Positions 8,573 through 55,888 of a stretch of DNA of 64,000 nucleotides are shown piece by piece. The stretch is from Rhizophagus irregularis. Lineage: Eukaryota. The notes under the pieces were generated by a model that made no database searches, was not told the DNA's origin, and saw only the letters and a program-made list of their open reading frames with translations. Each line of letters opens with the position of its first letter. The first letter of the stretch is position 1. The position numbers were made by a program, and so were the translations under genes. Location: assembly GCF_026210795.1 (NCBI RefSeq), contig NC_089430.1, positions 5,270,001 through 5,334,000 on the forward strand, written 5' to 3'.

Positions 8573-8574
<2 letters not shown>

Positions 8575-9550: not shown

Positions 9551-9556
9551 TCTAAC

Positions 9557-14365: not shown

Positions 14366-17300
14366 CTAGTTTATGATCTTTGTCCAAAACTTTTTTCTAT
14401 TCGATATTTTGAACCTAAAAAAAAAATAAAATAATATATTGAATACGAATAATATAAAACTTACATCTTAATATTCAGTTGAGAAATATTAATTTGTAAA
14501 GATTCTATTTAATAAAAAGTTTTATTAGTATCTTTAACTGATTTGCATTTTTAAAATAACAAAATTATTATTAATAATAATACCTGAAGATTCCTTGCTT
14601 ATTATATTATCATATTGTTCATCAGAATTTTTTATTTTAGGCCTACAAAAAAAAAATAGTATATTAAATATAAATAATATTATTAATCATTAATCAGATA
14701 ATTAAAAAACTTACATTTTATTATTATTCAATTGAGAAATATCAAGTTGTAAAGATTCTATTTAATAAAAAGTTTTATTAGTATCTTTAAAAACTGATTT
14801 GCATTTTAAATAACAAAATTATTAAATGATACCTGAAAATTTCTCGCTAATTATATTATCATTTTGTTCATAATAATCGTCGGAATTTTTTGGTTCAGGA
14901 AGATTATTAAAATCGAGTAATCTACTTGTATAAATAGCTTCTGAATGTGTATTATATGATATCCCTAAACTAGTTGAAGTTATACTGCTATTTGATGAAT
15001 TATTACTTATCTCATCTGCTTCCTTAATTTGTGCTCGTAATTCTATCGTTTGTTCATTATTAGATTCATATTGCCATCTAAATAAAATATTAATTATTTC
15101 TTTTGCTATTGGTCTGCTTAATGGGTTTGCATCTAAGCATCTTTTAATTAAATGTACAATTAATTGTGGTACTTTAATGTTAAACCTTGGTCTAAGTCCT
15201 TTGCAAATTTTTATTGCTAAATTATTATCATGTTTTAAATCATGATATGGGGGCAATCCAGAAATTACTTCATACATTATTATACCAAAACTATATATAT
15301 CGGCAGCTTTGGTATAATTTTGTCCTCTTAAAATTTCAGGAGCTATATAAGGTAAAACACCATATATCTTGTTTTTTGTACCTTCTAATTCATTAAATTC
15401 ATTATAATTTGCAGGTTTACATAATCCCATATCAGTTATAGCAGTTTTATATTTAAACTTTAAAATATTTCCAATATGCAAATCTCGATGAATAAATTCC
15501 TTTTCATGAATACATTTAAGTCCAACAATAATATACTGTAAATATTCAAACATTTTATTCCAGTTAAGCATATTATGTTCTTTGTCTAAATAATTTCGTA
15601 GATTTCCATCTTCTGCATATTCTAGGACCATTATATAATTTTTCGTTTTTGGATCCTGAGTTATTCCATAGAATCTAACAATTATATCATTATCCATTTT
15701 CACTTTATTATGCAGCATGATCTATGATGTAAATGTAAATATACAGTATATATTAGTAAAGCTAACAAAATCAAAAGTAATATTAGATTTATAAGATTAA
15801 TCAAATTATACCTCATTTATAAATTCTAATGTAACATTTTTTGAATTATCTAAACTTTTCAGAGCTACAAGCATATTTTCATTATACCTTTTCCGATTTT
15901 GATGTTCATTATTCCAATTAGTCATATACCCATCAATCCAATTTGCTCTATACACTTTGCCAAATCCACCTTTAGCAATATATTCAATATTATAAAATCT
16001 ATCATAAGGTATCCATTCTAATACTTCTTTTACATCTTTATGGGATGATAGCTGAGTATCTTGAATAAATTTATCAATATCATCATTACCACTAGTCCAA
16101 TCTATGAATTTATATTGAAAATTTATTGTGTTACATATACTATTACATTTTTTACATTTATTTTTCAAAACCAATAAATAACTTTTTGTTTCCAGATCTT
16201 GAGTTATCCCATAAAATTCATATTTTATTTTAATCTATAAATGTAATAATATTTAGTAAAATTAAAGTATTCAAAATTTACTAAATAATTTTATCATACC
16301 TTATTTGTAAATTTTAATGTAAGAGTAGTATTTAAGCTCTTCAAATTCACAATCATATTGTGACCTTCTCTTTTCCAATTTTGTTTTTTATAATCCCATT
16401 CACTTATGTATCCATCAATCCAATTTGCTCTATACACTTTTCCAAATTTATCTTTTGCTATATATTTAATATCATACAATCTATTGTTAGGTATCCATTC
16501 TAATGCTTTTCCTGTATTATCATGAGCTGATAGCTGAGTATCTTGAATAAATTTATCAATATAATTATTACCACTAGTCCAATCTATGAATTTATGTTGA
16601 AAGTTTATTGTGTTACATATACTATTACACTTTTTACATTTATTATTCAAAATCATTAAATAATAATTCTTTGTTTCTGGATATTGAGTTATTCCATAAA
16701 ATTTATATTCTATTTTAATCTATAAATGTAATAATACTTAGTAGAAATTAAAATATTCAAAATTTTGCTAAATAAATTTATCATACCTTATTTGTAAATT
16801 CTATTGTAACATTTTTTGAATTATTTAAATTCTTCAAGTTTACAAACATATTATAATTTTCTCTTTTCCAATTTTGATTTTTGCTATCCCAATTAGTTAT
16901 ATAACCATCAATCCAATTTGCTCTATACACTTTGCCAAATTCATCTTCTGCAATATATTTAATATTATATAATCTATCATAAGGTATCCATTCTAATGCA
17001 TCTTTTAAATCATTATGAGATGATGACTGAGTATCTTGAATAAATTTATCAATATCATTATAACCACTGGTCCAATCTATGAATTTATGTTGAAAGTGTA
17101 TTGTATTACATATACTATCACACTTTTTGCAATCATAATTCAAAACTATCATATAATTATCTGTTTCTGGATCTTGAGTTATTCCAAAAGGTATATTGAT
17201 CTACAAATACAAATATATTAGTAGAAATTAGAAACTTCAAAATTTTGTTAAATAAAAATTTATTACAGTACCTCATTTTCAAATTCTATTGTAATATTTT

Positions 17301-19128
17301 TTAAATTATTTACTCTCTTCAAATTTACAAGCCTATTATGATCTCTTTTCCAATTTTGATTATTATCATCCCAATAACTTATATTTCCATCAATCCAATT
17401 TGCTTTATACACATTACCAAACTTATTTTTTGCAATATCATCTAATCTATCATAAGGTATCCATTCTAATGCATTTGATATTTTACTATATCTATGAGCT
17501 AATAGCTGAGTATTTTGAATAAATTTATCAATATCATTATTACCACTAGTCCAATCTATAAATTTATGTTGAAAGTTTATTGTGTTACATATACTGTCAC
17601 ATTTTTTACATTTTTTATTCAAAACCATCATATAATTATTTGTTTCTGGATCCTGAGTTATTCCATAAAATTCATATTTTATTTTAATCTATAAAATGTA
17701 TTAATATTTAGTAGAAATTAAAATATTCAAAATTTTGCTAAATAAATTTATTATACCTTATTTGTAAATTCTATTGTAACATTTTTTGAATTATTTAAAT
17801 TCTTCAAATTCACAAACATATTATAATCTTCTCTTTTCCAATTTTGATTTTTGCTATCCCAATTATTTATACTACCATCAATCCAATTTGCTCTATACAC
17901 TTTGCCAAATTCATCTTCTGCAATATATTTAATATTATATAATCTATCATAAGGTATCCATTCTAATGCTTTCTTTATATTATTATGGGCTGACAGCTGA
18001 GTATCTTGAATCAATTTATCAATATCATTATTACCACTAGTCCAATCTATAAATTTATATTGAAAGTGTATTGTATCACACATTCTACTGTAACACTTTT
18101 TACATTTATTATTTAAAACCATCATATAATTTTTTGTTTCTGGATCTTGAGTTATTCCAAAAGGTATATTAATCTACAAATACAAATATCTTAGTAGAAT
18201 TAAAAACTTCAAAATTTATTGTATTAAATTTATTATACCTCATTTTCAAATTCTATTTTAATATTTTTTAAAGAATTTACTCTCTTCAAATTCACAAGCC
18301 TATTATGACCTTCTCTTTTCCAATTTTGATTTTTATCATCCCAATGTTTTATATTTCCATTAATCCAATTTGCTTTATACACGTTGCCAAACTTATTTTT
18401 TACAATATCATCCAGTCTATCATAAGGTATCCATTCTAATGCTTCATTTATATCTGCATTATCATGAGCTGATAGCTGAGTCTCTTGAATCAATATATCA
18501 ATATCATTATTACCACTAGTCCAATCTATAAATTTATGTTGAAAGTTTATTGTGTTACACACATTTCTATTACACTTTTTACATTTATTATTCAAAACCA
18601 TCATATAATTTTTTGTTTCTGGATCTTGAGTTATTCCAAAAGGTATATTGATCTACAAATACAAATATATTAGTAGAAATTAGAAACTTCAAAATTTTGT
18701 TAAATAAAAATTCATTATAGTACCTCATTTTCAAATTCTATTTTAATATTTTTTAAAGAATTTACTCTCTTCAAATTCACAAGCCTATTATGACCTTCTC
18801 TTTTCCAATTTTGATTTTTATCATCCCAATGTTTTATATTTCCATTAATCCAATTTGCTTTATACACGTTGCCAAACTTATTTTTTACAATATCATCCAT
18901 TCTATCATAAGGTATCCATTCTAATGCATTTGATATTTCACTGTTTTTATGAGCCATTAGCTGAGTATGTTGAATAAATTCATCAATATTATTATTACCA
19001 CTAGTCCAATTTTCAAAATTTTGTTGAAAATGAATTGCATTACATGTATAATTACATTTATTACATTTTTTAACATGTGATGATTTAATTAATTTATTAA
19101 TAACTTTGATAAAAGGGTTCATTGACAT
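14366..19128 (-). CDS. TKL-type kinase A with 7 tandem N-lobe modules (about 1329 aa)
   Basis: Exons 19128-18724, 18652-18239, 18173-17757, 17688-17272, 17200-16787, 16719-16300, 16234-15812, kinase exon 15721-14833, tail 14757-14715, 14642-14584, 14504-14465, 14414-14366; all GT-AG and in frame; GGFGKVY, VALK, HRDLHIGN, DMG, APE, DIYSFG. Confidence 0.9.
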
Positions 19129-19200
19129 TTTTAAACTATAAATGAATTCAAGTTAATAGGATATCAAGGATAAATGAAAAAATTTTAAACCTTATTATAA

Positions 19201-19352: not shown

Positions 19353-19354
19353 GT

Positions 19355-19580: not shown

Positions 19581-20479
19581 TAATAAATGGTAAAAAGTTA
19601 TATCGTGAATTTAATTTTCGTAAATAATAAAGAATAAATTTTGTAAGTTCAAATTTTGGAATCGGTTAATACTTAATACTATCAAATGGTTAAAGATTCA
19701 AAAAAAAATTGTTTTTTTTAGAGAAAAGAAAACTTATGAAATAAAAATAATTTACCAAAAAAATAAAATATTTGTGAAATACACGTAGAAACTTTTAGGA
19801 AAAAAAAAAGATTTAGGGAAGATGGTTATATACAGATAATTTAAATCACGTCTTAATAACAAATAAGAAAACGCCTATTTTTCTTATTACTAATTTTTAA
19901 TTTTTGCATCATTTCGCAGTATGAGTTATTCGCCAGTTAGCTAAAATACCATATACTGTAATAGCACATGATATTCATGCTAAATACTAATAAAAATTTA
20001 GTACGATTGCTAAACTTAACTATTAAGAATTTTTGTTTTAAAAAAATATTCTGATTTAACTTCTTAATAGTTTCTTTATGTAACATAATATAAAAAGTAT
20101 TTATTATCCATATTGATTGATTTATTAATTTTAGATATTAACTTTATCAAATTGGGTTTTAAAACATTATGGCCATTCTAAATTGTGAGAAGCTTGGAGA
20201 GCAAAGTTTAGAATAACGTAAAAATTCTGCATTTGTATTTACGAAATCAGATAAATTTTTATCATACTGAGCTTTATGACATTAGATGTTTAACAAGAAA
20301 TTATCATGCATATATTATAGTTAAAACACTAATTGATATAATGATACTTTTAACTTTGTTTTTTGCAAATTATTTATTAGATATTTCTTAATGGAAGCTT
20401 ACCATTTTCAAAAAATTCAACCAGTATTAATATTTGTTACATGATAGTCTGATTACGTAGTACTGCTGTTTATATAGTG

Positions 20480-23800: not shown

Positions 23801-24089
23801 GTATGGATGTTTGCCAATTTAGGTTAATCTAGGTAAATTAAGTTTATCTTAAAAAATTCCATTGTAGCATTAAAAAAAATTACATCCTCTAGAAAAAAAA
23901 TATCTTACTAATTAATATGAAAAAAAATTTCCAGAAAAATTAATTATAACGATCTATTGTCATGAAAAAAAGAAAAATTCCCCAGAAAAATTAATTATAA
24001 CGATCTATTGTTACAAAAATTAAATATTATGTAAGTCTATTATTGAGCTTGATACAAAAAAAAATATTATTATTATTAATAATAAGAAT

Positions 24090-25147: not shown

Positions 25148-28100
25148 TTAATTAATACCTCCATTGAGGAAATTAATTTGTAAAGATTCTATTTAATAAA
25201 AAGTCTTATTAGTAACTTTAAAAAACTGATTTGCATTTTAATAACAAAATTATTAGATGATACCTGAAAATTCCTTGCTAATTATATTATCATTTTGTTC
25301 ATAATAATCGTCAGAATTTTTTGGTTCAGAAAGATTATTAAAATTGAGTAATCTACTTGTATAAATAGCTTCTGAATGTGTATTATATGATATCCCTGAA
25401 TTAGTTGAAATTATACTGCTATTTGATGAATTATTGTTTTTCTCATCTGTTTCTTTAATTTGTGCTCGCAATTTTACTGTTTGTTCTTTATTTGGTTCAT
25501 ATTGCCATATGTATAAAATGTCGTTAATTTTTTCCGCTTTCGGTCGATTTGATGGAACAGCATCTAAACATTCCTTAATTAAAGATACAATTAATTGTGG
25601 CACTTTAATGTTAAACCAAGGTCTTAACCCTTGGCAAATTTTTAATGCCAAATTATTATCATGTTCTAAATTGTGATATGGGGGCAATCCAGATATTACT
25701 TCATATATTATTATGCCAAAACTATAAATATCAGAAGCTTTGGTATAATTTTGTCCTCTTAAAACTTCAGGAGCTATATAAGGTAAAACACCATATATGT
25801 TGTTTTTTGCATTTTCTAATTCATTATAATTTGCAGGTTTACATAATCCCATGTCAGCTATAGCAGTTTTATATTTAAACTTTAATATATTTCCAATATG
25901 CAAATCTCGATGAATTAATTCCTTTTCATGAATACATTTAAGTCCAAGTATAATATCTCGTAAATAATCAATTTTTTTACTCCAATTAAGCTTACTATAT
26001 TCTTTATCTAAGTAATTTCGTAAACTTCCATTTTCCGCATAATTTAAAACCATCATATAATTTTTTGTTTCTGGATCTTGAGTTACTCCATAAAATTCAG
26101 CAATATAATTAGTATTTATTCCTCCTTTGTTATGTGACGCAATCTATGTGAAAGTAATAATATAAAATATATTGGCAAAATTAAAATTTTAGGTATTATG
26201 AATATAACAATAAATTTATTTAATCAATTACCTCATTCATAAATTCTAATGTAACATTTTTTGAATTATCCAAACTTTTCAGAGCTATAATCATATTTTG
26301 ATTATATCTTTTCCAATTTTGATCTTTAATATTCCAATTAGACATATATCCATCAATCCAATTTGCTTTATATATTTTGCCAAATCCACCTTTTGCAATA
26401 TATTCAATATTATAAAATCTATCGTAGGGAATCCATTCTAATACGTTCTTTATATCGTCATCGTCGTGAGCTAATAGTTGAGTATCTTGTATAAATTTAT
26501 CAACATTATTATTACCGCTAGTCCAATCTAAAAATTTCTGTTGAAAGTGAATTGTATTACATATATCATTACATTTTTCACATATATTATTTAAAACCAT
26601 CATGTAACTTGTTGTTTCTGGATCTCGTGTTATACCATAAATTCTATATTCCATTTTAATCTATAAATGTAATAATGTTTTAGTAAAATCTAAATATTTA
26701 AAATTCATTAAATATATATATAATAAGTTTATCATACCTTATTTGTAAATTCTAATGTAAGATTACCCGAATTATTTAAACTTTTCAAATTCACAAACAT
26801 ATTATGACCTTTTCTTTCCCAATTTTGATTTTTATCATCCCAATTATTTATATTTCCATCAATCCAAATTACTCTATACGCTTTGCCAAATTCATCTTTT
26901 GTAATATGCAATCTTTCATAAGGTATCCATTCTAACGCTTCATTTACATCTCTAACAGATAATAGCTGAGCATCTTGAATAAATTTATCAATATCATCAT
27001 TACCACTGGTCCAATTTTTAAAATTTTGTTGAAAATGTATTGCATAACACGCGCAATTACATTTTTTACATTTATTACTATCCAAAACCATCATATAATG
27101 TTTTGTTTCTGGATCTCGAGTTATTCCATAGGGTTGATTGATCTACACATACAAAATATATTAGTAAAAATTAAGAACTTCAAAATTTTGTTAAATAAAA
27201 ATTTATTATAGTACCTCATTTTCAAATTCTTCTGCAATATTTTTTAAATCATTTACTCTCTTCAAATTCACAAGCCTATTATGACCTTCTCTTTTCCAAT
27301 TTTGATTTTTATCATCCCAATAACTTATATTTCCATCAATCCAATTTACTTTATGCACTTTACCAAATTCATCTTTTGTAATATGCAATCTATCATAAGG
27401 TATCCATTCTAACGCTTTATTTACATCATTAGCAGAAAATAGCTGAGCATCTTGAATAAATTTATCACTATCATCATCACCGCTGGTCCAATTTTTAAAA
27501 TTTTGTTGAAAATGTATTGCATAACATGCATAATTACATTTTTTACATTTATTACTATCCAAAACCATCATATAATGTTTTGTTTCTGGATCTTGAGTTA
27601 TTCCATAGGGTTTACGGATCTAACACACACAAAATATATTTAGTAAAAATTAAGAACTTCAATTTTGTAATAAGAAATTATTATACCTCATCATTAAATT
27701 CTGTAATATTTTTTGGATCATTTAAATTCTTCAAATACACTAACATATTACAACCTTCTCTTTTCCAACATTGATTTTTATCATCCCAATAACTTATATT
27801 TCCATCGATCCAATTTACTCTATCTTTTGTAATATGCAATCTATCATAAGGTATCCATTCTAACACTTCATTTACATCTTTAGCAGAAAATAGCTGAGTA
27901 TCCTGAATAAATTTATCAATATCATCATTACCACTGGTCCAATTTTCAAAATTTTGTTGAAAATGTATTGCATAACATGCACAATTACATTTTTCACATT
28001 TATTACTATCCAAAACCATCATATAATGTTTTGTTTCTGAATCTCGAGTTATTCCATTGGGTTTATTGATCTACACATACAAAATGTATTAGTAAAAATT

Positions 28101-28537
28101 AAGAACTTCAAAATTTTTGTTAAATTAAAGACTTATTATACCTCATTTGTTAATTCTATTGTAATATTTTTTAGATTATTTAAATTCTTCAAATATATTA
28201 ACATATTATGACCTTCTCTTGTCCAATTTTGATTTTTATCATCCCAACAACTTATTTTTCCATCAATCCAATTTGCTTTATATACTTTGCCAAGCTTATT
28301 TTTTGTAATATCATCCAGTCTATTATAAGGTATCCATTCTAATGCATTTGATATTTCATTGTCTTTATGAGCCATTAGCTGAGTATGTTGAATAAATTCA
28401 TTAATATCATTATTACCACTAGTCCAATTTTCAAAATTTTGTTGAAAATGTTTTGCATTACATGTATAGTTACATTTTTCACATTTCTCAACATGTGATG
28501 ACTTAATTGGTTCCTTATCTTTGATAACAGTACTCAT
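25148..28537 (-). CDS. TKL-type kinase B with 5 tandem N-lobe modules (about 979 aa)
   Basis: Exons 28537-28142, 28070-27687, 27619-27215, 27142-26738, 26660-26232, kinase exon 26143-25264, tail 25188-25148; GGFGKIY, IALK, HRDLHIGN, DMG, APE. Confidence 0.9.
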
Positions 28538-29910: not shown

Positions 29911-31309
29911 CAATGATGCATTGTGTAACAAATTTTTTTTACACAGAATTTTTTCGGATGTCGATCAAAATCAATGGTGAAAAGTTAGAGTAGGATTTTG
30001 ATTTTTATATATACAGTAATACTAAATAATAAATTTTGTGAGTTCAAATTTGGGTATCGGTTAATACTAACAAATGGTCAAATTTAGATATCTTAAATCA
30101 TGACTTAATAATAGATTGAGAGTTGCCTATTTTTTTCTCATTTGCATCATTTCGCAACACAAGTTATTTTACCAGTCAGCTAATATACCATATAAACTGG
30201 TGAAATAACACATGAATTTCATAATCATGTTACATACCAACAAAAATTTAGTATTATTGCTAAACTTAACTATAAACGTTTCTATATCAGTTATTGCAAA
30301 ACTATTGGATTGTGTGTTTATCTCTTCGTAATCCATTTATGTATAAAGAAAAACGAGAAAAATGGAAAGAGAATTTTAGAAGTGATATAGGATAACTGAA
30401 GGTATAAGCTAATAATTAGAAGAATCTCTTCAATAATCGATTTGTGATCTTACTCGTATAGTGGATAACCTCAATGCTGTACAGTGTCACAGAATTTGGA
30501 ATGAAAACAATAAGAGGAATCTAGAGTTATGGACGTGTGAATTTTAATAGGAATTTACTATAAGTTATGTAAAAGTATCATATAAAAGATTATTATTAGA
30601 GATTTTTTTTTGACGATTATAAGTTTTGGTTTAATTAGTTGATGGTACACCGTACACCCAACGTTTTATTAATACTAGTAATTCACAAATTGAAATTAAC
30701 GAAGTTGTTTTATATTTTTTTGTTAAATTATATGACACAAATTGATCCTTCACCAAAAGAATTCTTACTTCTGGTCAGTGGACAGTGATTACTGACTGCT
30801 AAGATAAGAAAATATGCGTTTTTTATATTTTCATATAATATTGTACTTTGTCAATAGTAAATATAAATAAATAATATAAAATCTGAAACTTTTATTTTCC
30901 TTTATTTGTATATAAAATTTGCGATTAAAAATTGATTTAAATTAGATCAAATAAATACATTAATTAAAATATTTCAAGTCATAAATAAATATTGAGTTAA
31001 TTCTTGACCTTATTTTGCGTCTTATATATCGTTAAAATTTATAATTTATTTAACCAATTAATAACTATATAGTTCAATATATGATTATGATTTAAAATTT
31101 AAAATCCTGTTTAGCGTAATTCTCAATATAATGTAAAAAAAAAATGTCATATTAATCGTTAGAAAAGCAAAAAAAAACTATTTTGAATGTACTAAAGCAA
31201 AGGTTAAGAAAAACCAACGTTAAACAGAATTTTCGAAAAATATAAAATTCTTAAAATAATAATATCATAATATATAAACATTGATTAATTATAACTTTTA
31301 GGCTATGAC

Positions 31310-32600
31310 CTTTGCTCAAAACATTTTTACCTACAAACAATAAAATAATATATTGAATACGAATCATTAACCATATAGATTAAAAAATTTACATCTTAAT
31401 CAATATTCAATTAAGATATATCAATTCAATTTGTAAAGATTCTATTTAACAAATTAAAAGTTTTATTAGTATCTTTAAAAACTGATTTTCATTTTTAAAA
31501 TAATAAAATTATTTAAATAGAAAATTTCTTAATTTACACGTGCACTTTCACGTGACTGTAAAAAATTTGTTAATAAATACAATTTAAAAAGAAACATATG
31601 GTATGTGCAATTCGATTTTGTTTAAAGCAGCAAAGTTGATTTTGAACGTCAATTTTGACTTATTTAACAAATTCGATTCGTTATTTTTTTGCCCAGCATC
31701 AAATCATTCAAATGATCAGTATAGAAAATTTAAAACCAGTATTTGAAACACCCCATATACAAATAAATTACAAATTCCTCGCTAATTATATAATCGTTGG
31801 AATTTTTGGTTCAGGAAGATTATTAAAATTGAGTAATCTATTTGTATAAATAGCTTCTGAATGTGTATTATACTATGATATGCCTAAAATAGTTAAAGTT
31901 ATATTGTTATTTAACAAATTATTGTTTATTTCATCCGTTTCCTTAATTTGTGATCATAATTCAATTGTTTTTGAGTTGTATCACATCTTCGTAAAACATT
32001 GTTAATTCCTAAACAGGTCTAAATCCTTTATTGCTATATCCTTATTATGGCTTAAATCATAATATAGTAGGGTGATCCAGAAATTATATCAACAGCTTTG
32101 GTGTCAGGAGCTGTATAAGGTATGTAAAACAATATATGTATTATTTTTCGTACTTTCTGATATATAACAATCCGCAGGTTATAATTTAAGTTTTAATATT
32201 TTTTTAATTTGTACTCGATGAATTATTCCTTTTCATGAATAAATCCAAGTTCAAGTATAGCATTTTATAACAATCTTTCGTCTAAATAATTTCGTAAACT
32301 TCCATCATATAATTTTTGTTTCGTTATTAAATTAATGAAAAAATTGTCTATTTTTGTATATTAACAATTTTAGTAAACCTAATAAATTACCAATTATGTA
32401 AATCACTCCATTCATAAATAATATCATGAAAATCTATTACAAGGTATTCATTATTTATTTATATAATTGTAATGAGCTGATAGTTGAGTGTCTTGAATAA
32501 ATTTATCAATATTATCATTGCCACTAGTCCAATTTTTGAAAACGTATTACGTAACATATGCGATTACATTTCTCACAACTTTCAACATGTTGATGACTTT
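31310..32600 (-). pseudogene. Deletion-riddled kinase paralog
   Basis: Remnants of exon 1 (CEKCNRIC, WTSGNDNIDKFIQDTQLSAH), kinase (GSLRNYLD, PYTAPD, HSEAIYTNRLLNFNNLPEP) and the ESLQ tail exon, with many indels. Confidence 0.85.
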
Positions 32601-32604
32601 ATAT

Positions 32605-33290: not shown

Positions 33291-33312
33291 TCAGCGCAGA
33301 TCCAGGTCACAC

Positions 33313-33834: not shown

Positions 33835-36180
33835 ATGGAAGATGATGGATCAAAAAATAATAAAAAAGATGATTTCGCTGAAAATTTAAAAGACAGTTCT
33901 TTAATGGTTGTTCCATTTGCAAGATTTCTTCCTTTAATTAATGAAATTGAAAATTTTTTTAACGAAATCATCGAATTAGTGGAAGCTGCTGAACATAATC
34001 AACGAACTTGTGAAATATTAAAAAATCGAGTTCGTGTTGCAGAATTAGCCGTACGAGATCTTAGAGATAAAAAAAAAGACAGAGAAGATTTTTTTAATAA
34101 AATAAATTATATACGTTTACAAGAATTATCTACTATTATAAAACAAATTAAAAAATTTATATCAGAAATCTCTCTAATGAAAACTTTGATAAAATACCTT
34201 AAAGAGAAAAGTGTTGAGAAAATTTTTAAAAAATTATGTATGGAATTCGACAGTTGTATTAACTTATTGTCTTTTTCTTTTAACGTTGAAATTGCTGATG
34301 AACTTGAACAATTAAAATCCGATCAAGATGATTTATTTAAAGTAAGATTAAAAAAATTGAGTTTTATTATTGAAACATAAAATTAATTTATATTATTTTA
34401 ATAAATTATAGTATCTACAAGGAATGGTGGCTGGTATTGATGATAACGACTGCTTCGCAGACTCAAGTAAAAAGTTTTTTTCAACAATTGTAAAAGTTAA
34501 TGCAATGAATAATACAATGATAGGAAAATTTAAAAGTCAAACAAAAATTAGTGATGTCTTTCAGGTACATCCACTAGAATTTTCTGATTATGAAATTGAT
34601 GATAATGGGAAAACAGATGAATATAGACGTGTAAATAAATGGTATAAAAAAACAAATAAAGGTGCTGAATTCGCTTTTAAAACTATCTCTGGAGAGGACG
34701 AAGTGATTGTACAAAAACAAGTTGCAATTCTTAAAGAACTTCATGATTGGCAAAACATCATAAAATTTCACGGAATGATTTCTGATGGAAATCAATGGTA
34801 TTTGGTGACTGAATGGGCCGAACGTGGAAATTTGCGTGAATTTTATCAAAATAAAAATTATATCGACCTTAAATCAAAATTACGTATATCTCTTGATATT
34901 GCTCGTGGATTAAATTTTTTAAGAACTGTAGAGGTAATTATATAACCAGCTTTTATTTAATTAACGAAAAATTTTTTTTTTAATTTTTTTTTTTAGATTT
35001 TTCATCGAGATATTAGGGCTGAAAATATATTAATTACACTTAATGAGACAGCAAAACTTGCAAATTTCAAATTAATTCGTTCCCAACCCGGCGGACAGGC
35101 TATATGTTTTCCAAACCTAAACTTAGACCAAACTCGTTATTGTGCACCTGAATTGTTGGAGGGGGTGCTAAATTACAAACATGAACAAAGATGTGGTGAG
35201 GTTTATAGTTTTGGAATCTTACTTTGGGAAATTGCTGAAGAAAGAATTCCACATCAGGGTATTAATGGTATTAGGGATATAATTGATAAGGTATGTAATA
35301 AAAAGTATAGAGAACCATTTTCTGAAAATAGTCAAATGCCAGAAAAATTCAAACAATTAGAAATTGAAGGTATGTAAAAGAAAATATTTTAAATTACAAT
35401 TTTATTTGTTGTACTTAATTGGTTTCTTTTTTTTTACATATTTTTTTAGCCGTTCATCATGATCCAGATTTTAGGCCAAAAATCACGAAAATATTTGAAG
35501 TTCTTAATAATTGTTTCAAGGAATATTCACAAGTTACATCAAGTTCTAGTGGCCCAAACCTAAGAGGAAACAGTAGAAACAACTCTATGCAAAAGTCTCG
35601 TCCAAAACGAGCAGACAACATTGATGCATACGCCCTTCCAGATCTTGAATCATTTAAATATATGACACTTGCTGATGCAGAAAAACAACATAAGTTGTAT
35701 AATAATCATGATAAACTAGTTGGAGATGTAATAACTGCATATAAATGTTTTGAAGCTTATGCAAACCTTGGTAATACAGGAGGTACAGCAAACCGTAATC
35801 AAATCAAAGCAAAATATTATAAAGCATATTACATTTCAAAAGAATTGATTGAGGACCCTACAAATAAAGATGAAATTGTTGCTGAATTATTTAAAGAAGT
35901 TGCTAATGATGAAGCAAATGGATTCCCTGAAGCAAAATTAAGATATGGAGATTGTTTGTATCATGGCAAAGGTGTTGATCAAAATTTTTCAGAAGCTCTT
36001 AAATATTTAGAAAAAGCTGCTGAAGATGGTTTTAAAGTAGCAATGTATAACACTGGAGGTATGTATTACAATGGTATTGGTTGTACGAAAGATATAGAAA
36101 AAGCTAAATATTATATGAAATTAGCTGCTTATGGTGATTATGAACTTGCTATTAAATTTTGTAAGGAACATGACATATAA
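33835..36180 (+). CDS. MLKL-like protein: N-terminal four-helix bundle (HeLo-like) + pseudokinase + Sel1-like repeats (710 aa)
   Basis: Exons 33835-34341, 34412-34933, 34997-35369, 35450-36180, in frame; helical NTD LINEI...AEHNQRTCEILKNRV; kinase fold FAFK, HRDIRAEN, NFK for DFG, YCAPE, EVYSFG; Sel1 YGDCLYHGKGVDQNFSEA and GGMYYNGIGCTKDIEKA. NTD identity is recognition, not a search result. Confidence 0.85.
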
Positions 36181-42094: not shown

Positions 42095-42484
42095 TATGGA
42101 AAGCCATCCTTGACAAAAGGTTGATGTCCAGACATCATGTTGGATAATGTCTAGACATCATGTTTGATATATGTAGAATAATGTTTGTACACCATTCAAC
42201 ATGATGCTCAAGCATCAACCGACATGATGTCTTAGACATGTTACCAAATATAGTAAATTTTATTTTGTGTAACTCATAAATATACTATATTTGGTAATTT
42301 GATCAGCATGATGTCTAGACATCATGTCGTGATGTCGGTTGATGTCTTTCACATCATGTTAAATAATGTACAAACATCATCCTACATATATCAAACATGA
42401 TGTCTAGACATACCATCATGATGTCTAAATATTATATTTCATGATGTTTGGACATCAACCTTTTGTCAAGGACGGCTTTCCATA
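42095..42484. mobile_element. 390-bp palindromic MITE
   Basis: TATGGAAAGCCATCCTTGACAAAAGGTTGATGTCCA and its reverse complement; GACATCATG repeats; CAAATT on both sides; superfamily unclear. Confidence 0.85.
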
Positions 42485-45021: not shown

Positions 45022-48000
45022 CTAACTTTTTCTGTTCGATATTTTGAACCTTAAAAAAATAAAATAATATATTGAATACGAATAATATAAAATTTACATC
45101 TCAATATTCAATTGAGATATATCAATTTGTAAAGATTCTATTTAATAAAAGTTTTATTAGTAACTTTAAAACTGATTTACATTTTTAAAATAACAAAATA
45201 TTAATAATAATACCTGAAGATTCATTGCTTATTATATTAATATTATCATATTGTTCATCAGAATTTTTTATTTTGGGCCTACAAAAAAAAAATAGTATAT
45301 TAAATATAAATGATATTATTAATCAATAATCATATAAGTTAAAAAACTTACATTTTATTATTATTCAATTGAGAAATATCAATCTGTAAAGATTCTATTT
45401 AATAACAAGATTTATTAGTATCTTTAAAACTGATTTGCATTTTTAAAATAACAAAATTTTTATTATTAATAATACCTGAAGATTCCTTGTTTATTATATT
45501 ATCATATTGTTCATCAGAATTTTTTATTTTGGACCTACAAAAAAAAAATAGTATATTAAATATAAATAATATTATTATTAATCATTAATCAAATAAATTA
45601 AAAAACTTACATTTTATTATTATTTAATTGAGATAGTATATTAATTTGTAAAGTTTCTATTTAATAAAAGGATTTATTAGTATCTTTAAAAAACTAGTAA
45701 TTTACATTTTAAATAACAAAATTATTAAATGATACCTGAAAATTTCTTGCTAATTATATTATCATTTTGTTCATAATAATCGTCAGAATTTTTTTGTTCT
45801 GGAAGATTATTAAAATCAAGTAATCTACTTGCATAAGTGGCTTCTGAATGTGTATTATATGATATTCCTAAGTTATTTGAAGTTATATCGCTATTTGACG
45901 AATTATTGTTTATTTCATCTGCTTCCTTAATTTGTGCTTGTAATTCTATTGTTTGTTTATCATTTGGTTCATATTGCCATTTAAGTAAAATTTTGTATAT
46001 GTCTTCTGCTGTTGGTCGATTTAGCGGATTGGAATCCAAGCACTTTTTAATTAAGTGCACAATTAATTGTGGTACTTTAATGTTAAACATTGGTCTAAGT
46101 CCTTTGCAAACTTTTATTGCTAAATTATTATCATGATTTAAATCATGATATGGGGGTAATCCAGAAATTACTTCATACATTATTATACCAAAACTATAAA
46201 TATCGGCAGCTGTTGTATAATTTTGTCCTCTTAAAATTTCAGGAGCTATATAAGGTAAAACGCCATATGTCTTATTTTTCGTATTTTCTGATGTATAACA
46301 ATCTGCAGGTTTACATAATCCCATATCAGTTATAGTAGTTTTATTTTTAAACTTTAAAATATTTCCAATATGTAAATCTCGATGGATTAATTCCTTTTCA
46401 TGAATACATTTAAGTCCAATAATAGTATAATGTAAATATTTAAACATTTCAATCCAATTAAGCTTATTATATTCTTTATCTAAATAATTTCGTAAACTTC
46501 CATCTTCTGCATATTCTAAGACCATTATATAATTTTTCGTTTTTGGATCCTGAGTTATTCCATAGAATCTGACAATTGCATTATTATCCATTTTCACTTT
46601 ATTATGCAGCATGATCTATGATGTAAATGTAAAAATAAAAATATATTAGTAAAACCGACAATCTAGGTATTATGATCAAAATTATCAAACTAAATTAATC
46701 AAATTATACCTCATTCATAAATGCTAATGTAACATTTTTTGAATTGTCTAAACTTTTCAGAGCTACAAACATAGTATCTTTATTATATCTTTTCCAATTT
46801 TGGTTACTATCATCCCAATCAATTAGATAACCATCAATCCAATTTGCTCTATACACTTTACCAAACCCACCTTTTGCAATATATATAATATCATAAAATC
46901 TATCATAAGGTATCCATTCTAAAGCATTTGTAAATAGTTCAATGTTATTATGTACTGATAACTGACTGTCTTGAATAAATATATCAATATTATTATTATC
47001 ACTGGTCCAATTTTCAAAATTTTGTTGAAAATGCATTGCATGACATGCATAATTACATTTTTTACATATAGTATTATTCAAAACCATCATATAACTTTTT
47101 GTTTCTGGATCTTGAGTTATTCCAAAAGGTATATTGATCTACAAATACAAATATATTAGTAGAAATTAAAAATTTCAAAATTTTATTAGTATTTTTTATT
47201 ATACCTCATCAATAAGTTTTATTCTAATATTCTTTAAATTATTTAAACTTTTTAGAATTACTACTCTACTTCCATATCTTATCCACTTTTCATTTTTATT
47301 ATCCCAACTCTCTATTTCTCCACCAATCCAATTTGCTCTATACATTTTACTAAATTCATCAGCATCTGCAATATATTTAATATTATATAATCTACTATAA
47401 GGTATCCATTCTAACACTTCTTTCAAATCATTATGAGCTGATAACTGAGTATCTTGAATAAATTTATCAATATCATTATTACCACTAGTCCAATCCATAA
47501 ATTTATGTTGGAAGTGCATTGTATTACATATACTATTACACTTTTTACAATTATAATTCCAAACCATAATATAATTTCTTGTTTCTGGATCTTGAGTTAT
47601 TTCAAAAGGTACATTGATCTACAAATACAAATATATTAGTGGAAATTAAGAACTTCAAAATTTTATTGACATTTAATTTATTATACCTCATTTGTGAATT
47701 TTATTGTAATATTTTTTGAATTGCATAAACTTTTCAGAATTATATCCTCACTTCTATATCTTATCCAATTATGATTTGTATTATTCAATTTGTATATTTC
47801 TCCATCAATCCAATTTGCTTTATACACTTTGACAAACTTATTTTTTGAAATATCACTATCATAAGGTATCTGTTCTAATGTATATTTTTTTACTAAGCAA
47901 TAAGTATGTTCTGACAGCTCGGTATCTTGAATAAATTTATCATTATCACTAGTACAATTTTCAAAATTTTGTTGAAAATCCATTGGATTGCATATTGCAT

Positions 48001-51000
48001 TACACTTTTTACATTTATTATTCAAAACTATCATATAATTTTTTGTTTCTGAATCTTGAGTTATTCCATAAAATTCATAATCTATTTTAATCTACAAATG
48101 TAATAATACTTAGTAAAAATTAAAATATTCAAATTATGCTAAATAATTTTACCATACCTTATTTGTAAATTTTATTGGAATATTTTTTGAATTATTTAAA
48201 CTTTTCAAATTCACAAACATATTACAACCTTCTCTTTTCCAATTTTGATATTTATTATCCCAATCACTTATATTTCCATCAATCCAATTTGCTCTATACA
48301 CTTTGCCAAATTCATCTTCTGCAATATATTTAATATTATAAAAACTATCATAAGGTATCCATTCTAATACTTCTTTTAAATCTTTATGAGATGATAACTG
48401 AGTATCTTGAATAAGTTTATCAATATCATTATTACCACTAGTCCAATCTATGAATTTATGTTGAAAGTGAATTGCATTACACATCTTATTACATTCTTTA
48501 CATTTATTATTCAAAATCATTAAATAGTTTTTTGTTTCTGGATCTTGAGTTATTCCATAAAATTCATATTCTATTTCAGTCTATAAATGTAATAACACTT
48601 AGTAGAAATTAAAATATTCAAAATTTTGCTAAATAGATTTATCATACCTTGTTTGTAAATTCTATTGTAATATTTTTTGAATTATTTAAACTCTTCAAAT
48701 TCACAAACATATTACAACATTCTTTTTTCCAATTTTGACTTTTGCTATCCCAATTAGTTATATATCCATCAATCCAATTTGCTCTATACACTTTGCCAAA
48801 TTCATCTTCTGCAATATATTTAATATTATATAATCTATCATAAGGTATCCATTCTAATACTTCTTTTAAATCTTTATGAGATGATAACTGAGTATCTTGA
48901 ATAAATTTATCAATATCATTATTACCACTAGTCCAATCTATGAATTTATATTGAAAGTGTATTGTATTACATATACTACTGCACTTTTTACATTTATAAT
49001 TCAAAACTATCATATAATTATCTGTTTTTGGATCTTGAGTTATTCCAAAAGGTATATTGACCTACAAATATAATTATATTAGTAGAAATTAAAAACTTTA
49101 AAACTTTATTGATATTAAATTTATATACCTCATTTGTAAATTCTATTGCAATGTTTTTTAAATTATTTAAACTCTTCAGAATTACATTCCCACTTCTATT
49201 TCTTTTCCAATTTTGATTTACACTATTCCAATATTCTATTTTTCCATCAATCCAATTTGCTTTATATACTTTACCAAACTTATTTTTCGAAAAATCATCC
49301 AGTCTATCATAAGGTATCCATTCTAATGCTTTTGTTGCATCATGAGCTGATAACTGAGTATCTTGAATAAATTTATCAATATCATTATTACCACTAGTCC
49401 AATCTATGAATTTATGTTGAAAGTGAATTGCATTACATATCTTATTACATTCTTTACATTTATTATTCAAAATCATTAAATAATTTTTTGTTTCTGGATC
49501 TTGAGTTATTCCATAAAATTCATATTCTATTTTAATCTGTAAATGTAATAATACTTAGTAAAAATCAAAATATTCAAATTTTGATAAATAATTTTACCAT
49601 ACCTTATTTGTAAATTTTGTTGTAACATTTTTTGAATTATTTAAACTTTTCAAATTCACAAACATATTACAATCTTCTCTTTTCCAATTTTGATATTTAT
49701 TTTTCCAACCACTTATATTTCCATCAATCCAATTTGCTCTATATATTCCAGATTCTTCAATATATTTAATATCATATAATCTATTATAAGGAATCCATTC
49801 TAATGCTTTTTTTGTACTATCATCATGAGCTGATAGCTGAGAATCCTGAATAAATTTATCAATATCATTATTACCACTGGTCCAATCTAAGAATTTATGT
49901 TGAAAGTGAATTGCATTACACATCTTATTACATTCTTTACATTTGTTATTCAAAATTATTAAATAGTTTTTTGTTTCTGGATCTTGAGTTATTCCATAAA
50001 ATTCATAATCTATTTTAATCTATAAATGTAATAATACTTAGTAAAAATTAAAATATTTAAATTTTGCTAAATAAGTTTACTATACCTTATTTTTAAATTT
50101 TATTGTAACATTTTTTGAATTATTTAAATTCTTCAAATTTACAAACATATTATAACCTTCTCTTTCCCAATTTTGATTATGGCTAACCCAATTAGTTATA
50201 TATCCATCAATCCAATTTGCTCTATACACTTTGCCAAATTCATCTTCTGCAATATATTTAATATTATATAATCTATCATAAGGTATCCATTCTAATACTT
50301 CTTTTAAATCTTTATCATGAGATGATAACTGAGTAACTCGAATAAGTTTATCAATACCATTATTACCACTAGTCCAATCTATGAATTTATGTTGAAAGTG
50401 AATTGCATTACACATCTTATTACATTCTTTACATTTGTTATTCAAAACTATTAAATAGTTTTTTGTTTCTGGATCTTGAGTTATTCCATATAATTTATAA
50501 TCTATTTTAATCTATAAATGTAATAATACTTAGTGAAAATTAAAATATTTAAATTTTGCTAAATAAGTTTACTGTACCTTATTTGTAAATTTTATTGTAA
50601 TATTTTTTGAATTAAAACTCTTCAAATTTACAAACATATTATAACCTTCTCTTTCCCAATTTTGATTATGGCTAACCCAATTAGTTATATATCCATCAAT
50701 CCAATTTGCTCTATACACTTTGCCAAATTTATCTTCTGCAATATATTTAATATTATATAATCTATCATAAGGTATCCATTCTAATACTTCTTTTAAATCT
50801 TTATAATGAAATGATAACTGAGTATCTCGAATAAGTTTATCAATACCATTATTACCACTAGTCCAATCTATGAATTTATGTCGAAAGTGAATTGCATTAC
50901 ACATCTTATTACATTCTTTACATTTATTATTCAAAACTATTAAATAGTTTTTTGTTTCTGGATCTTGAGTTATTCCATATAATTTATAATCTATTTTAAT

Positions 51001-53380
51001 CTATAAATGTAATAATACTTAGTAAAAATTAAAATATTTAAATTTTGCTAAATAAGTTTACTGTACCTTATTTGTAAATTTTATTGTAATATTTTTTGAA
51101 TTATTTAAACTCTTCAAATTTACAAACATATTATAACCTTCTCTTTTCCAATTTTGAATTTTGCTATCAAAATTAGTTATATATCCATCAATCCAATTTG
51201 CTCTATACACTTTGCCAAATTCATCTTCTGCAATATATTTAATATTATATAATCTATCATAAGGTATCCATTCTAACATTTCTTTTAAATCTTTATGAGA
51301 TGATAACTGAGTATCTTGAATAAATTTATCAATATCATTATTACCACTAGTCCAATCTATGAATTTATATTGAAAGTATAATGCATTACATTTACTGTTA
51401 CACTTTTTACATTCATTATTCAAAACCATCATGTAATTGTTTGTTTCCGGATCTTGAGTTATTCCAAAAGGTATATCGATCTATAAATACAAATAAATTA
51501 GTAGAAATTAAAAAAATCAAATTTTACTGGTATTAAATTTATTATACCTCATTTGTAAATTCTATTGTAATGTTTTTTAAATTACTTAAATTTTTCAGTA
51601 TTACATCCTCACTTCTATATCTTTTCCAATTTTGATTTTCATTATCCCAATATTCTATTCTTCCATCAATCCAATTTGCTTTATACACTTTACCAAACTT
51701 ATTTTTTGAAAAATCATCCAGTCTATCATAAGGTATCCATTCTAATGCATTTCCTGCCCAATAATTATGTACTGATAACTGAGTATCTTGAATAAATTTA
51801 TCAATATCATTATTACCACTAGTCCAATCTATGAATTTATATTGAAAGTGTAATGTATTACATTTACTGTTACACTTTTTACATTTATTATTCAAAACCA
51901 TCATGTAATTGTTTGTTTCCGGATCTTGAGTTATTCCAAAAGGTATGTCGATCTATAAATACAAATAAATTAGTAAAAATTAAAAAAATCAAATTTTACT
52001 GGTATTAAATTTATTATACCTCATTTGTAAATTCTATTGCAATATTTTTTAAATTACTTAAATTTTTCAGTATTACATCCTCACTTCTATATCTTTTCCA
52101 ATTTTGATTTTCATTATCCCAATATTCTATTCTTCCATCAATCCAATTTGCTTTATACACTTTACCAAACTTATTTTTTGAAAAATCATCCAGTCTATCA
52201 TAAGGTATCCATTCTAATGCATTTCCTACCCAATAATTATGTACTGATAACTGAGTATTTTGAATAAATTTATCAATATCACTATTACCACTAGTCCAAT
52301 CTATGAATTTATGCTGAAAGTATATTGCGTCACATTTACTGTTACATGTTTTACATTCATTACTATTTAAAACCATAATGTAATTGTTTGTTTCCGGATC
52401 TTGAGTTATTCCAAAAGGCATATTGATCTACAAATACAAATATATTAGTAGAAATTAAAAAACTTCAAAATTTATTGGTCGGTATTAAGTTTATTATACC
52501 TCATTTGTAAATTCCATTGCAATGTTTTTTAAATTACTTAAACTTTTCAGAAAAACATCCTCATTTTTATATCTTGCCCAATTTTTATTTTCATTATTCC
52601 AATGTATTATTTTTCCATCAATCCAATTTGCTTTGTACACTTTGCCAAACATATATTTTGCAATATCGTCCAGTCTATCATAAGGTATCCATTCCAATGC
52701 ATTTGATATTTCACTATCTTTATGAGATGATAATTGAGTATCCTGAATAAATTTATCAATATCGTTATTACCACTAGTCCAATCTATGAATTTATATTGA
52801 AAGTGTATTGCATTACATATACTGTTACACTTTTTACATATATTACTATTTTTTAAAACCATAATATAATTATCTGTTTCCGGATCTTGAGTTATTCCAA
52901 AAGGTATATTGACCTACAAATACAAGCATATTAGTAGAAATTAAAAACTTCAAAATTTTACTGGTATTAAATTTATTATACCTCCTCATTTTTAAATTTT
53001 ATTGTAATATTTTTTGAATTATTTAAACTTTTCAGAATTACATCCTTACTTCCATATCTTATCCAATTTTTATTTTTATTATCCCAATATTTTATTTTTC
53101 CATCGATCCAATTTGCTTTATACACTTTGCCAAATTTATTTTTTGCAAAATTATCTAGTCTATCATAAGGTATCCATTCCAATGCATTTGATATTTCACT
53201 ATCTTTATGAGCTGATAACTGAGTATCTTGAATAAATTTATCAATATTGTCATTACCACTAGTCCAATTTTTGAAATTTCGCTGAAAATGCATTGCGTGA
53301 CATGCATAATTACATTTTTCACAACTCTTGACACGTGATAACTTAGTTATCTTCTTAATACTTTTGATAAAGGGATCCAT
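45022..53380 (-). CDS. TKL-type kinase C with 14 tandem N-lobe modules (about 2319 aa)
   Basis: Exons 53380-52982, 52913-52500, 52427-52020, 51952-51548, 51480-51067, 51000-50578, 50511-50086, 50019-49603, 49536-49129, 49061-48648, 48580-48158, 48091-47687, 47618-47205, 47138-46710, kinase exon 46615-45736, six tail exons to about 45022; all module exons are multiples of 3. Confidence 0.9.
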
Positions 53381-54467: not shown

Positions 54468-55624
54468 GGGTATTGCTAAATCTCACCAGCAGTGATTATC
54501 ACCACCGGTGATTGTCACACTTAATTTCAGCTAAAAATTAAAATTTGGCCAGAGTTATAAAATGCCGGTTTATAATTTTGGCCGGAGTTAAAAAATACTG
54601 ATCTCTAAATTTTATTCTAAAATAACTAGTTGTAACCTGTTGCGTTGCAACAGAATCAAATGAGTTTAAATCAATATAACCAGCGTGAAAAAAAAGTTTG
54701 CAAAAATTGTGGAATTTTACCGGCAAAGCATAACAATTCCGGAAATTTATTTTTTCAACCGGAATATGACCAGAATTAAAAATATCTTCGATAAACTTAA
54801 TTTATTTTTAAAATATACCGGAAATCTGGCCGGGATCATAAAATTTTACCGGATTTATCAAAAATTTACCGGAAAAACCGGCTAAATTACAATAGATTTT
54901 TCACGCTGAATATAACAATAAAATATTTAAATAAGATAAAAATTCATAAAAAAAATATGTATAAAAATAAATGAAAAATTTCAAAAAAACCGGAATGAAA
55001 AATATTAAAAATTATTAAAATTTCGGTTAAAAGATCCGGTCTATCGAAAAAAGAATAATATTAAAAAAAAGATCCGATCTTCAAAAGTGACCGAAAAAAG
55101 GTGGATGATGCGATCAACCGCAGCAGCGATTGAATGTTCGGAACGTACACGTGACCCTACAGCCAATCAAATTATTTAAATCATAATAATCGTCAACCTA
55201 TGTCAAACGAGGTGTGTCAGGTGCGTCGAATGATTAGCTTTCCAAAAATCAGCCCATACGCGCAGACGAATCACAATTCAGTAATATTTATGCAGATTAA
55301 TCTAAACGTTACCGGATACACATGAATTTTTTTAATTATATAGATGAATACGTTAAAAAATATTGATTTGATGTTAACCATGACAAAATTTTGAAATTTT
55401 TCTCAAAAAAAAAAAAAACTTTTAGTAAAGTAAAAAAATTAAAAAAATCAAAATTTTACATTTTAGCGTTAGATATATTGTTTCTTGTAAATTTACATAA
55501 AAATAACTGTTTAATATGTGTAGTTGATTATTTAATTTAATATTAATCATATAAAATCCAAAAAACAGGACTGGTAAAAACCACCAGTGGTGACAATCAT
55601 CACTGATGACATTTTGACATTCTC
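54468..55624. mobile_element. Old non-autonomous TIR element with nested insertions
   Basis: Degenerate TIRs GGGTATTGCTAAATCTCACCAGCAGTGATTATCACCACCGGTG vs revcomp GAGAATGTCAAAATGTCATCAGTGATGATTGTCACCACTGGTG. Confidence 0.4.
54681..54908. mobile_element. 228-bp hAT-type MITE
   Basis: TIR CAGCGTGAAAAA/TTTTTCACGCTG; 8-bp TSD AATATAAC; ACCGG subterminal repeats. Confidence 0.88.
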
Positions 55625-55736
55625 AAGATTTTTTTTATAGCAATAGAGATTTATAAAGAATTTTGAGAATTTTTTTTTTTTTATAATAGATTGGTATAAA
55701 AAAATTATCTGGGATTTTTTTTTTAATAACAATAAA

Positions 55737-55888
55737 ATAAATTTATCAATATTATCATTACCACTGGTCCAATTTTTGAAGTTTTTTTGAAAACATATTT
55801 CGTAATATATGCGATTATATTTTTCACATTTCTTAACATGTGACGACTTAATTAGTTTCTTAATACTTTTGATAAAAGAATAATCCAT
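55737..55888 (-). pseudogene. 5' fragment of a fifth kinase paralog
   Basis: MDYSFIKSIKKLIKSSHVKKCEKY...WTSGNDNIDKFI then abrupt loss of homology; paralogous upstream region retained at 55890-56996. Confidence 0.85.

What the first reader, a model, noticed from the sequence alone, without database searches (positions are those of the whole stretch)
14366..55888. MLKL-like executioner embedded among N-lobe-array kinases: candidate necroptosis-like immune locus
Seen: one intact helical-bundle + pseudokinase + Sel1 gene sits between three catalytically intact-looking array kinases and two dead paralogs in a TE-rich birth-and-death cluster. Known: animal MLKL (4HB + pseudokinase) is activated by the TKL kinase RIPK3, and fungal HeLo/HeLo-like cell-death effectors are often encoded next to their sensors. 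Inference: variable kinases sense, and the MLKL-like protein executes membrane damage. Linkage could be chance, because both families may be large in this genome.
Basis: inference. Interest (0 to 1): 0.85.

Follow-up and report, generated by a model that had tools for sequence, protein, structure and literature searches.

The report
Stray MLKL-like gene among array kinases
A mycorrhizal fungus has an intact gene resembling the animal cell-death protein MLKL next to three unusual kinases built from long rows of repeated kinase half-domains; both gene types are real and interesting, but they are likely neighbours through a recent gene duplication rather than as a sensor-killer pair.

Summary
The anatomy is confirmed. 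The window is Rhizophagus-type DNA. It holds an intact, spliced 710-aa gene (four-helix bundle, brace, pseudokinase, Sel1) whose best full-length sequence and fold match is MLKL. Around it lie three intact kinases with 7, 5 and 14 exon-encoded N-lobe repeats, and two relics.

The locus hypothesis is not supported:
- The MLKL-like gene is a young dispersed copy (90% identical, SH-aLRT 100) of one member of a seven-gene tandem cluster on another chromosome-scale record.
- In partial lists, 142 MLKL-like and 116 array-kinase contigs share only 6; four of these are this locus, and none is shared in R. clarus or R. diaphanus.
- MLKL-like genes span Glomeromycota; all 120 listed array kinases are Rhizophagus.
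- No RHIM core was found, and this copy lacks the family's activation-loop serine.

The Glomeromycotina MLKL+Sel1 family is already noted in print. Two features were not found in my searches. The first is the N-lobe array: only the last lobe keeps its glycine loop (68 of 77 versus 2 of 377). The second is a hypervariable activation loop among young MLKL-like paralogues (24% identity versus 84-93% in flanks). No genome-wide test or complex prediction was available.

The parts
14366..19128 (-). K1: array kinase, 7 repeat exons + kinase exon + short tail exons, 1329 aa
   Evidence: gene model; database protein P0122 96%; RNA-like contigs end at exon edges 18724 and 17272
25148..28537 (-). K2: array kinase, 5 repeat exons + kinase exon + tail exon, 979 aa
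   Evidence: identical over 966 aa to P0153/P0467; intron 27620-27686 spliced in X18; AlphaFold model pLDDT 74.9
31300..32602 (-). decayed array-kinase paralogue (first-repeat, kinase and tail remnants with frameshifts and stops)
33835..36180 (+). MLKL-like gene, 4 exons, 710 aa: four-helix bundle (about 32-144), brace helices (156-206), pseudokinase (about 220-495), Sel1/TPR (about 540-710)
   Evidence: spliced RNA-like contigs
35071..35140 (+). activation loop of the pseudokinase (about residues 368-389), diverged from the family pattern; family Ser replaced by Ile370
   Evidence: nucleotide bounds approximate
45022..53380 (-). K3: array kinase, 14 repeat exons + kinase exon + repeated tail exons, 2319 aa
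55736..55888 (-). 5' fragment of a further array-kinase paralogue (about 50 codons of the first repeat)

Best explanation
The window holds two real but likely independent members of large, fast-turnover gene families: a young duplicate of an MLKL-like gene that likely landed inside an older cluster of N-lobe-array kinases. Shown: the MLKL-like gene is intact, spliced, and sister to a gene in a tandem cluster on another record. Inferred mechanism for it: the pseudokinase is a conformational switch that holds the helical bundle in check. A ligand or modifying enzyme acting on its variable activation loop or on its Sel1 repeats would release the bundle to oligomerise at a membrane, with no need for a neighbouring gene. 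Shown for the kinases: each has one complete catalytic domain preceded by 4-13 extra N-lobes that have lost the glycine-rich loop. Inferred: the extra lobes are non-catalytic binding or decoy modules that gate the kinase, with unknown substrates.
For: Tree: the window gene pairs with OCT59_019977 (SH-aLRT 100, 90% identity), nested among cluster members 019963-019984; 026970 is a second dispersed copy (quick tree, no bootstrap). Seven cluster tags lie on a 3.30-Mb record and the window gene on a 6.14-Mb record; 18 family tags fall on 9 records. Contig sharing: 6 shared of 142 and 116. Four are this locus in other assemblies, one is a 4.9-Mb record with the genes about 770 tags apart, one pairs two fragments. 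R. clarus: 0 of 8 MLKL-like contigs are among 12 array contigs, about 1 expected by chance (assumed genome size). Range: MLKL-like hits in Funneliformis, Glomus, Gigaspora, Dentiscutata, Cetraspora, Ambispora; arrays 120 of 120 listed are Rhizophagus. Pseudokinase state is conserved: DFG Asp is Asn in 65 of 65, alphaC Glu in 0 of 65. Glycine loop kept in 68 of 77 last repeats and 2 of 377 internal ones. Kinase and Sel1 families are known to be high-copy in non-core regions of this species (PMC8647823 passages).
Against: The comparison is partial: 120 of 582 array clusters plus 30 members, one contig per record, no gene-level maps. A second near pair exists: a 119-aa bundle-only fragment (POG74958) lies 15 accessions from an array-family fragment (POG74973). 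The rough chance of at least one such adjacency per genome is only 0.04-0.28 (assumed inputs). The copy is retained and near-identical in several annotation sets, and K1, K2 and the MLKL-like gene appear transcribed in the same runs. 26 of 333 bundle-bearing records also carry a DFG/DLG kinase, so kinase control of this family is plausible. Membrane activity is untested.
Confidence: 0.6

Rival explanations
1. Dedicated locus: K1-K3 sense a non-self ligand through their N-lobe arrays and phosphorylate the neighbouring MLKL-like protein, which kills the compartment; the duplicate was kept here because it was recruited.
For: Intact genes, transcribed in the same runs. Arrangement shared by four assembly records. 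[quoted passage not shown] RIPK3:MLKL pairs are selective and co-evolve (PMC7305131 passages), so a changed activation loop could match a new kinase.
Against: Young dispersed copy. No recurrence in R. clarus or R. diaphanus lists. Family Ser, present in 51 of 64 parsed rows, is Ile here. No RHIM or PP core in K1-K3 or the MLKL-like protein. The K2 kinase shows no special likeness to RIPK3: RIP3 ranks 31 of 50 listed folds, Z 23.2 (rmsd 2.4, 238 aligned) against 26.5 for the top row; best sequence hits are PKC-theta.
Confidence: 0.12
2. Family-level coupling in trans: TKL-type kinases, possibly including array kinases, activate MLKL-like paralogues wherever they are encoded, and the variable activation loops set which kinase matches which effector. 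Position is irrelevant, but the pathway is necroptosis-like.
For: Bundle/pseudokinase modules are fused to DFG/DLG kinases in several genera. OCT59_006904 fuses a degenerate single-lobe relative of the array kinases to bundle and pseudokinase modules. A conserved activation-loop Ser in most of the family.
Against: None of the 144 array records carries a bundle. The fused kinases with intact DFG/DLG score only about 100-180 against the array-kinase profile. Some fusions may be gene-model merges. MLKL-like genes exist in genera where no array kinase was listed.
Confidence: 0.16
3. The window copy is a drifting or non-lytic duplicate: the loop changes reflect relaxed selection, or the bundle serves as a scaffold rather than a membrane-damaging domain.
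For: Loop identity 24% with insertions and deletions; no codon test could be run on these paralogues. The bundle scores just under the Pfam cut-off. Kinase and Sel1 genes are often highly methylated in this species (PMC8647823 passages).
Against: The open frame, introns and all other domains are conserved (bundle 89%, alphaF 93%, alphaH/I 93% among six paralogues), and the gene is spliced. Drift would not be expected to concentrate on one loop.
Confidence: 0.12

Closest known systems
Vertebrate MLKL (RIPK3-activated necroptosis executioner)
   Same: Bundle, brace and pseudokinase in the same order; the family profile aligns to human MLKL 6lk5 in one stretch (47-503 to 6-469, E 1.3e-39); top Foldseek hit is full-length mouse MLKL 4btf.
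   Different: Extra C-terminal Sel1 repeats; keeps HRD but has NF[K/S] for DFG and no alphaC Glu; multi-copy; no RHIM-bearing partner found; the 4btf match has rmsd 14 A, so domain packing is not shown to be the same.
Glomeromycotina MLKL family with Sel1 repeats (Orlowska and Muszewska 2022, PMC8778642)
   Same: This gene is a member: the paper reports MLKL-family (TCDB 1.A.105) homologues exclusively in Glomeromycotina, with Sel1 repeats (passages).
   Different: The passages seen give no motif analysis, cluster organisation, activation-loop variation or partner; supplements not seen.
Fungal HeLo/HELL effectors and NLR-effector gene pairs (het-S/nwd2, HELLP/PNT1)
   Same: Related membrane-targeting bundle; some HELL domains occur with kinase/pseudokinase domains (PMC12881547 and PMC10197012 passages).
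   Different: Those pairs couple by amyloid motifs to an adjacent NLR; no NLR domain among the 17 ORFs scanned and no RHIM/PP core.
Plant MLKLs (bioRxiv 10.1101/681015)
   Same: Bundle plus pseudokinase outside animals, tied to immunity (start of abstract only).
   Different: Plant proteins lack Sel1 repeats (recalled); three genes in Arabidopsis against at least 18 tags here.
Plant ZED1/ZRK decoy pseudokinases and tandem kinase-pseudokinase resistance proteins (recalled, no call)
   Same: Tandem clusters of pseudokinases with variable surfaces used as effector baits; a conceptual match to both the variable loop and the dead N-lobes.
   Different: Those use whole kinase folds and an NLR partner; the arrays here repeat only the N-lobe.
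High-copy TKL-type kinases of Rhizophagus
   Same: Catalytic domain and the Cys/WTSGN lead-in belong to this expansion (expansion described in PMC8647823 passages).
   Different: 3-13 tandem repeats in the 120 listed proteins and 14 in K3; I found no description of this architecture.

Membership tests
MLKL family | N-terminal four-helix bundle homologous to MLKL 4HB | tested here: met
   Pfam MLKL_N 26.7 bits, E 4.3e-6 (cut-off 27); paralogues P0045 and P0299 pass at 35 and 36.6; four helices, block pLDDT 73-93; profile aligns from MLKL residue 6. The bundle was not folded or searched alone.
MLKL family | Brace helices between bundle and pseudokinase | tested here: met
   Predicted helices 156-175 and 184-206
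MLKL family | Catalytically deficient kinase domain | tested here: met
   DFG Asp is Asn in 65 of 65, alphaC Glu 0 of 65, no glycine loop; Lys kept 61 of 65, HRD Asp 64 of 65. Activity not assayed.
MLKL family | Activation-loop Ser/Thr as activating phosphosite | tested here: inconclusive
   Family Ser in 51 of 64 parsed rows, Ile370 in this copy; two other S/T remain in the loop
MLKL family | Oligomerises and permeabilises membranes | not testable with these tools
   Amphipathic first helix only (hydrophobic moment 1.8-2.1)
RIPK3-MLKL necroptosis pathway | Upstream kinase carries a RHIM amyloid motif | tested here: not met
   No match to recalled RHIM or PP core patterns in K1, K2, K3 or the MLKL-like protein (pattern search only)
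RIPK3-MLKL necroptosis pathway | Kinase binds and phosphorylates the pseudokinase | not testable with these tools
Fungal sensor-effector gene clusters | Linkage recurs across independent loci and species | tested here: inconclusive
   6 shared contigs of 142 and 116, four being this locus; none in R. clarus or R. diaphanus. Leans against, but the lists are partial.
Fungal sensor-effector gene clusters | Adjacent NLR with amyloid signalling motif | tested here: not met
   No NACHT/NB-ARC hit among 17 ORFs scanned (shorter ORFs not scanned); tblastn of fetched proteins found only kinase relics between genes
Active TKL-type protein kinases (K1-K3) | Glycine loop, beta3 Lys, HRD, DFG-like, APE intact | tested here: met
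   All present in 3 of 3; family HRD 77 of 77, DxG 74 of 77
Kinase N-lobe array | Repeats are homologous to, and fold like, the kinase N-lobe | tested here: met
   Internal repeats align to the catalytic last repeat, beta3 Lys 26 of 26; the model repeats the same strand/helix order (pTM 0.49, so repeat packing is unknown)

The most novel reading that the evidence does not exclude
Rhizophagus runs a combinatorial necroptosis-like immune system without amyloids. Array kinases use rows of dead, exon-shuffled N-lobes as decoy sensors, and MLKL-like paralogues use hypervariable activation loops as matching locks. This locus would be a newly formed sensor-effector pairing caught soon after the effector gene was duplicated into a sensor cluster.
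Probability: 0.12. Interest if true: 0.9.

Novelty: new variant of a known kind. Interest (0 to 1): 0.5.

Why it matters
Arbuscular mycorrhizal fungi are coenocytic, host endobacteria and have hundreds of unexplained kinases, and how they limit infection or non-self fusion is an open question. A full-architecture MLKL family with a paralogue-specific activation loop gives a directly testable death or defence switch. The N-lobe array is a kinase architecture I could not find described, and it offers a concrete sensor or decoy hypothesis for part of the kinase expansion. The result also cautions that adjacency between high-copy families in this genome is weak evidence of function.

Tried and rejected
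Not available: whole genome, gene-neighbourhood look-up, complex prediction. Metagenome scans: no answer, no relative, three loci of which two are 1.2 and 1.6 kb and one is a weak kinase hit; uninformative for linkage. Positive selection in the repeats: pairwise counting gave dN/dS 1.4-3.1 in four-part variable segments, but likelihood fits put omega near 1, best 1.0-1.5, gain of 0.7 lnL for the hairpin (kappa fixed at 2; the free fits did not move from their start values). So I reject a claim of diversifying selection; the core is purifying (omega 0.34). No listed holder is on record as RNA; RNA status rests on intron-skipping joints. Run X21 holds almost none of the locus; its kind is unknown, so I draw no presence/absence claim. 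Terminal inverted repeats around the MLKL-like gene (Pack-MULE style): none convincing. VIA re-alignment listed only kinase-domain matches, with MLKL tied among many kinases (Z 25.4 against 26.3); the bundle was barely tested there. Rfam: no match. Earlier findings: four look-ups empty. Atlas: only unnamed Mucoromycota kinase clusters for the repeat. Literature searches (MLKL in these fungi; kinase expansion, tandem N-lobes) found no description of the arrays or of a kinase-MLKL pairing; subscription journals and supplements were not seen.
Full report
Setting. The window is AT-rich (about 20-35% GC) intron-containing DNA. Exon 1 of the central gene is 100% identical to a Rhizophagus irregularis protein (P0001, named OCT59_012477).

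The MLKL-like gene. Four exons give 710 aa with canonical introns, identical to P0039. Pfam finds MLKL_N just under its cut-off, a kinase and Sel1 repeats. Against solved structures the best kinase-type sequence match is MLKL (85 bits against 74 for the next), and the family profile aligns to human MLKL over bundle and pseudokinase in one stretch. The model (pLDDT 78, pTM 0.72) has four long helices, two brace helices, a kinase fold and helical repeats. Its top Foldseek hit is full-length mouse MLKL (E 9.8e-13, 472 columns, rmsd 14), while VIA ranks many kinases level with MLKL. In 65 aligned homologues the DFG Asp is always Asn, the alphaC Glu is never present and the glycine loop is gone, while Lys and HRD are kept. 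This is a conserved pseudokinase state, not decay. Introns 1 and 3 are skipped in contigs from three RNA-like runs of two studies, with most intergenic bins empty; intron 2 was not listed as a joint.

The array kinases. K1, K2 and K3 have 7, 5 and 14 repeats, each on its own phase-0 exon, followed by one exon with the rest of the kinase. An internal exon runs beta4-beta5 of one lobe, a CxxCxxxC linker, the WTSGN helix, then beta1-beta2-hairpin-beta3-alphaC of the next lobe. Exon duplication therefore adds a whole, chimeric N-lobe. Only the lobe next to the C-lobe keeps KGGFG: 3 of 26 repeats in the window, and 68 of 77 last against 2 of 377 internal repeats among the 77 of 120 listed proteins that have a C-lobe. 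The beta3 Lys is kept in 26 of 26 and the alphaC Glu in 16 of 26. The repeat core is under purifying selection (omega 0.34) and the variable parts are near neutral, so adaptive diversification is not shown. The family is large: 582 clusters at E 1e-10 or better, with 3-13 repeats in the 120 listed, all Rhizophagus.

Is the adjacency meaningful? Locus tags show a tandem MLKL-like cluster (OCT59_019963, 964, 971, 974, 975, 977, 984) on a 3.30-Mb record, whereas the window gene lies on a 6.14-Mb record; 18 family tags fall on 9 records. In a 25-row tree the window gene is sister to 019977 (SH-aLRT 100, 90% identity) inside the cluster clade, and 026970 is a second dispersed copy (quick tree). The K1-K3 kinase exons are 77-83% identical to K1, so the kinase cluster is probably older than the arrival of this copy (inference).

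Contig comparison. Using contig length as an identifier, 193 MLKL-list records (177 confirmed by profile or motif) lie on 142 contigs and 144 array records on 116. Six are shared: four are this locus, one is a 4.9-Mb record with the genes about 770 tags apart, and one pairs a 119-aa bundle fragment with an array fragment 15 accessions away. None of the cluster's contigs appears in the array list. In R. clarus 0 of 8 MLKL-like contigs coincide with 12 array contigs, against about 1 expected by chance. Dropped before counting: non-Rhizophagus rows and rows with no contig. The array list is 120 of 582 clusters plus 30 members, with one contig per record. MLKL-like hits span six further genera. 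No RHIM or PP core occurs in any of the four proteins, and K2 is not especially RIPK3-like.

Evidence the other way. The arrangement is shared by several R. irregularis assembly records, and the genes appear transcribed in the same runs. Bundle modules are fused to intact-looking kinases in 26 of 333 bundle-bearing records from several genera, and OCT59_006904 carries a degenerate single-lobe relative of the array kinases. This supports kinase control of the family in general, but none of the 144 array records has a bundle.

Among the window gene and five cluster paralogues (74-90% identical to it) the activation loop is only 24% identical, against 84% and 93% in flanking kinase segments and 89% in the bundle; older members in three Rhizophagus species share one loop sequence. 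The family's loop Ser (51 of 64 parsed rows) is Ile in this copy. Because vertebrate RIPK3:MLKL pairs are selective and co-evolve (PMC7305131, passages), this looks like a specificity switch or a decoy surface, but relaxed selection is not excluded without DNA for the paralogues.

What is known. MLKL-family proteins with Sel1 repeats were reported as exclusive to Glomeromycotina (PMC8778642, passages). Reviews note HELL-kinase/pseudokinase architectures and clustered death genes in fungi (PMC12881547, PMC10197012, passages). The NLR survey passages seen do not treat this family. I found no description of N-lobe arrays or of a kinase-MLKL pairing in these fungi; the library lacks most subscription journals and I read no supplements.

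Verdict. The MLKL-like protein most likely works like MLKL as a pseudokinase-gated membrane effector (inferred, untested), controlled through its own loop and Sel1 repeats or by kinases in trans. The lasting value lies in the N-lobe-array architecture and the loop-variable MLKL-like cluster. Interest 0.5.

Noticed in passing
window 455-6254 (-): LINE-type element: two ORF1-like frames, an endonuclease-like frame and RT (Pfam RVT_1), broken by in-frame stops.
   Followed up: partly
window 6344-11933: 216-bp arms 97% inverted (6344-6559, 10938-11153) enclose a 518-codon ORF (6655-8211; no Pfam hit, weak likeness to the LINE ORF1, an 82-member Mucoromycota cluster) and nested inverted arrays of a 60-bp satellite; looks like nested foldback-type elements.
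   Followed up: partly
window 13508-14043: Near-perfect 536-bp palindrome (261-bp arms, 91%) just past the 3' end of K1.
   Followed up: no
window 41170-43036: Small inverted-repeat elements between the MLKL-like gene and K3 (58-bp arms at 41170/41346; 80-bp arms at 41849/42957 around a palindromic core).
   Followed up: no
window 57312-63615 (-): Second LINE-type element (endonuclease, RT, RNase H-like frame) interrupted at about 58586-59293 by a tandem/inverted repeat insertion.
   Followed up: no
window 14366-14833 and 45022-45736 (-): The kinase tails also expand by exon duplication: an Asn/Gln/Ser-rich two-exon unit occurs once more in K1 and twice more in K3 than in K2; no RHIM core.
   Followed up: partly
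proteins P0013/P0045 (OCT59_023827): A dispersed MLKL-like paralogue has an extra N-terminal domain with a Pfam Tse2 ADP-ribosyltransferase hit (31.2 bits, above cut-off).
   Followed up: no
proteins P0103, P0098, P0238, P0299: Large modular relatives combine kinases, a MACPF-like segment (weak Pfam MACPF_1), one to three bundles, tandem pseudokinases, LRR or Sel1, suggesting a shuffled toolkit of pore-forming and switch domains. Some may be gene-model merges.
   Followed up: partly
window repeats K1_r5/K3_r10, K3_r6/r7, K3_r3/r4: The repeat tree mixes genes (K1 repeats group with K3 repeats) while first and last repeats form their own clades, consistent with internal exon shuffling or conversion.
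   Followed up: partly
window 24027-24601: Purine-rich, A-run low-complexity tract between K1 and K2 that gives spurious long frames.
   Followed up: no
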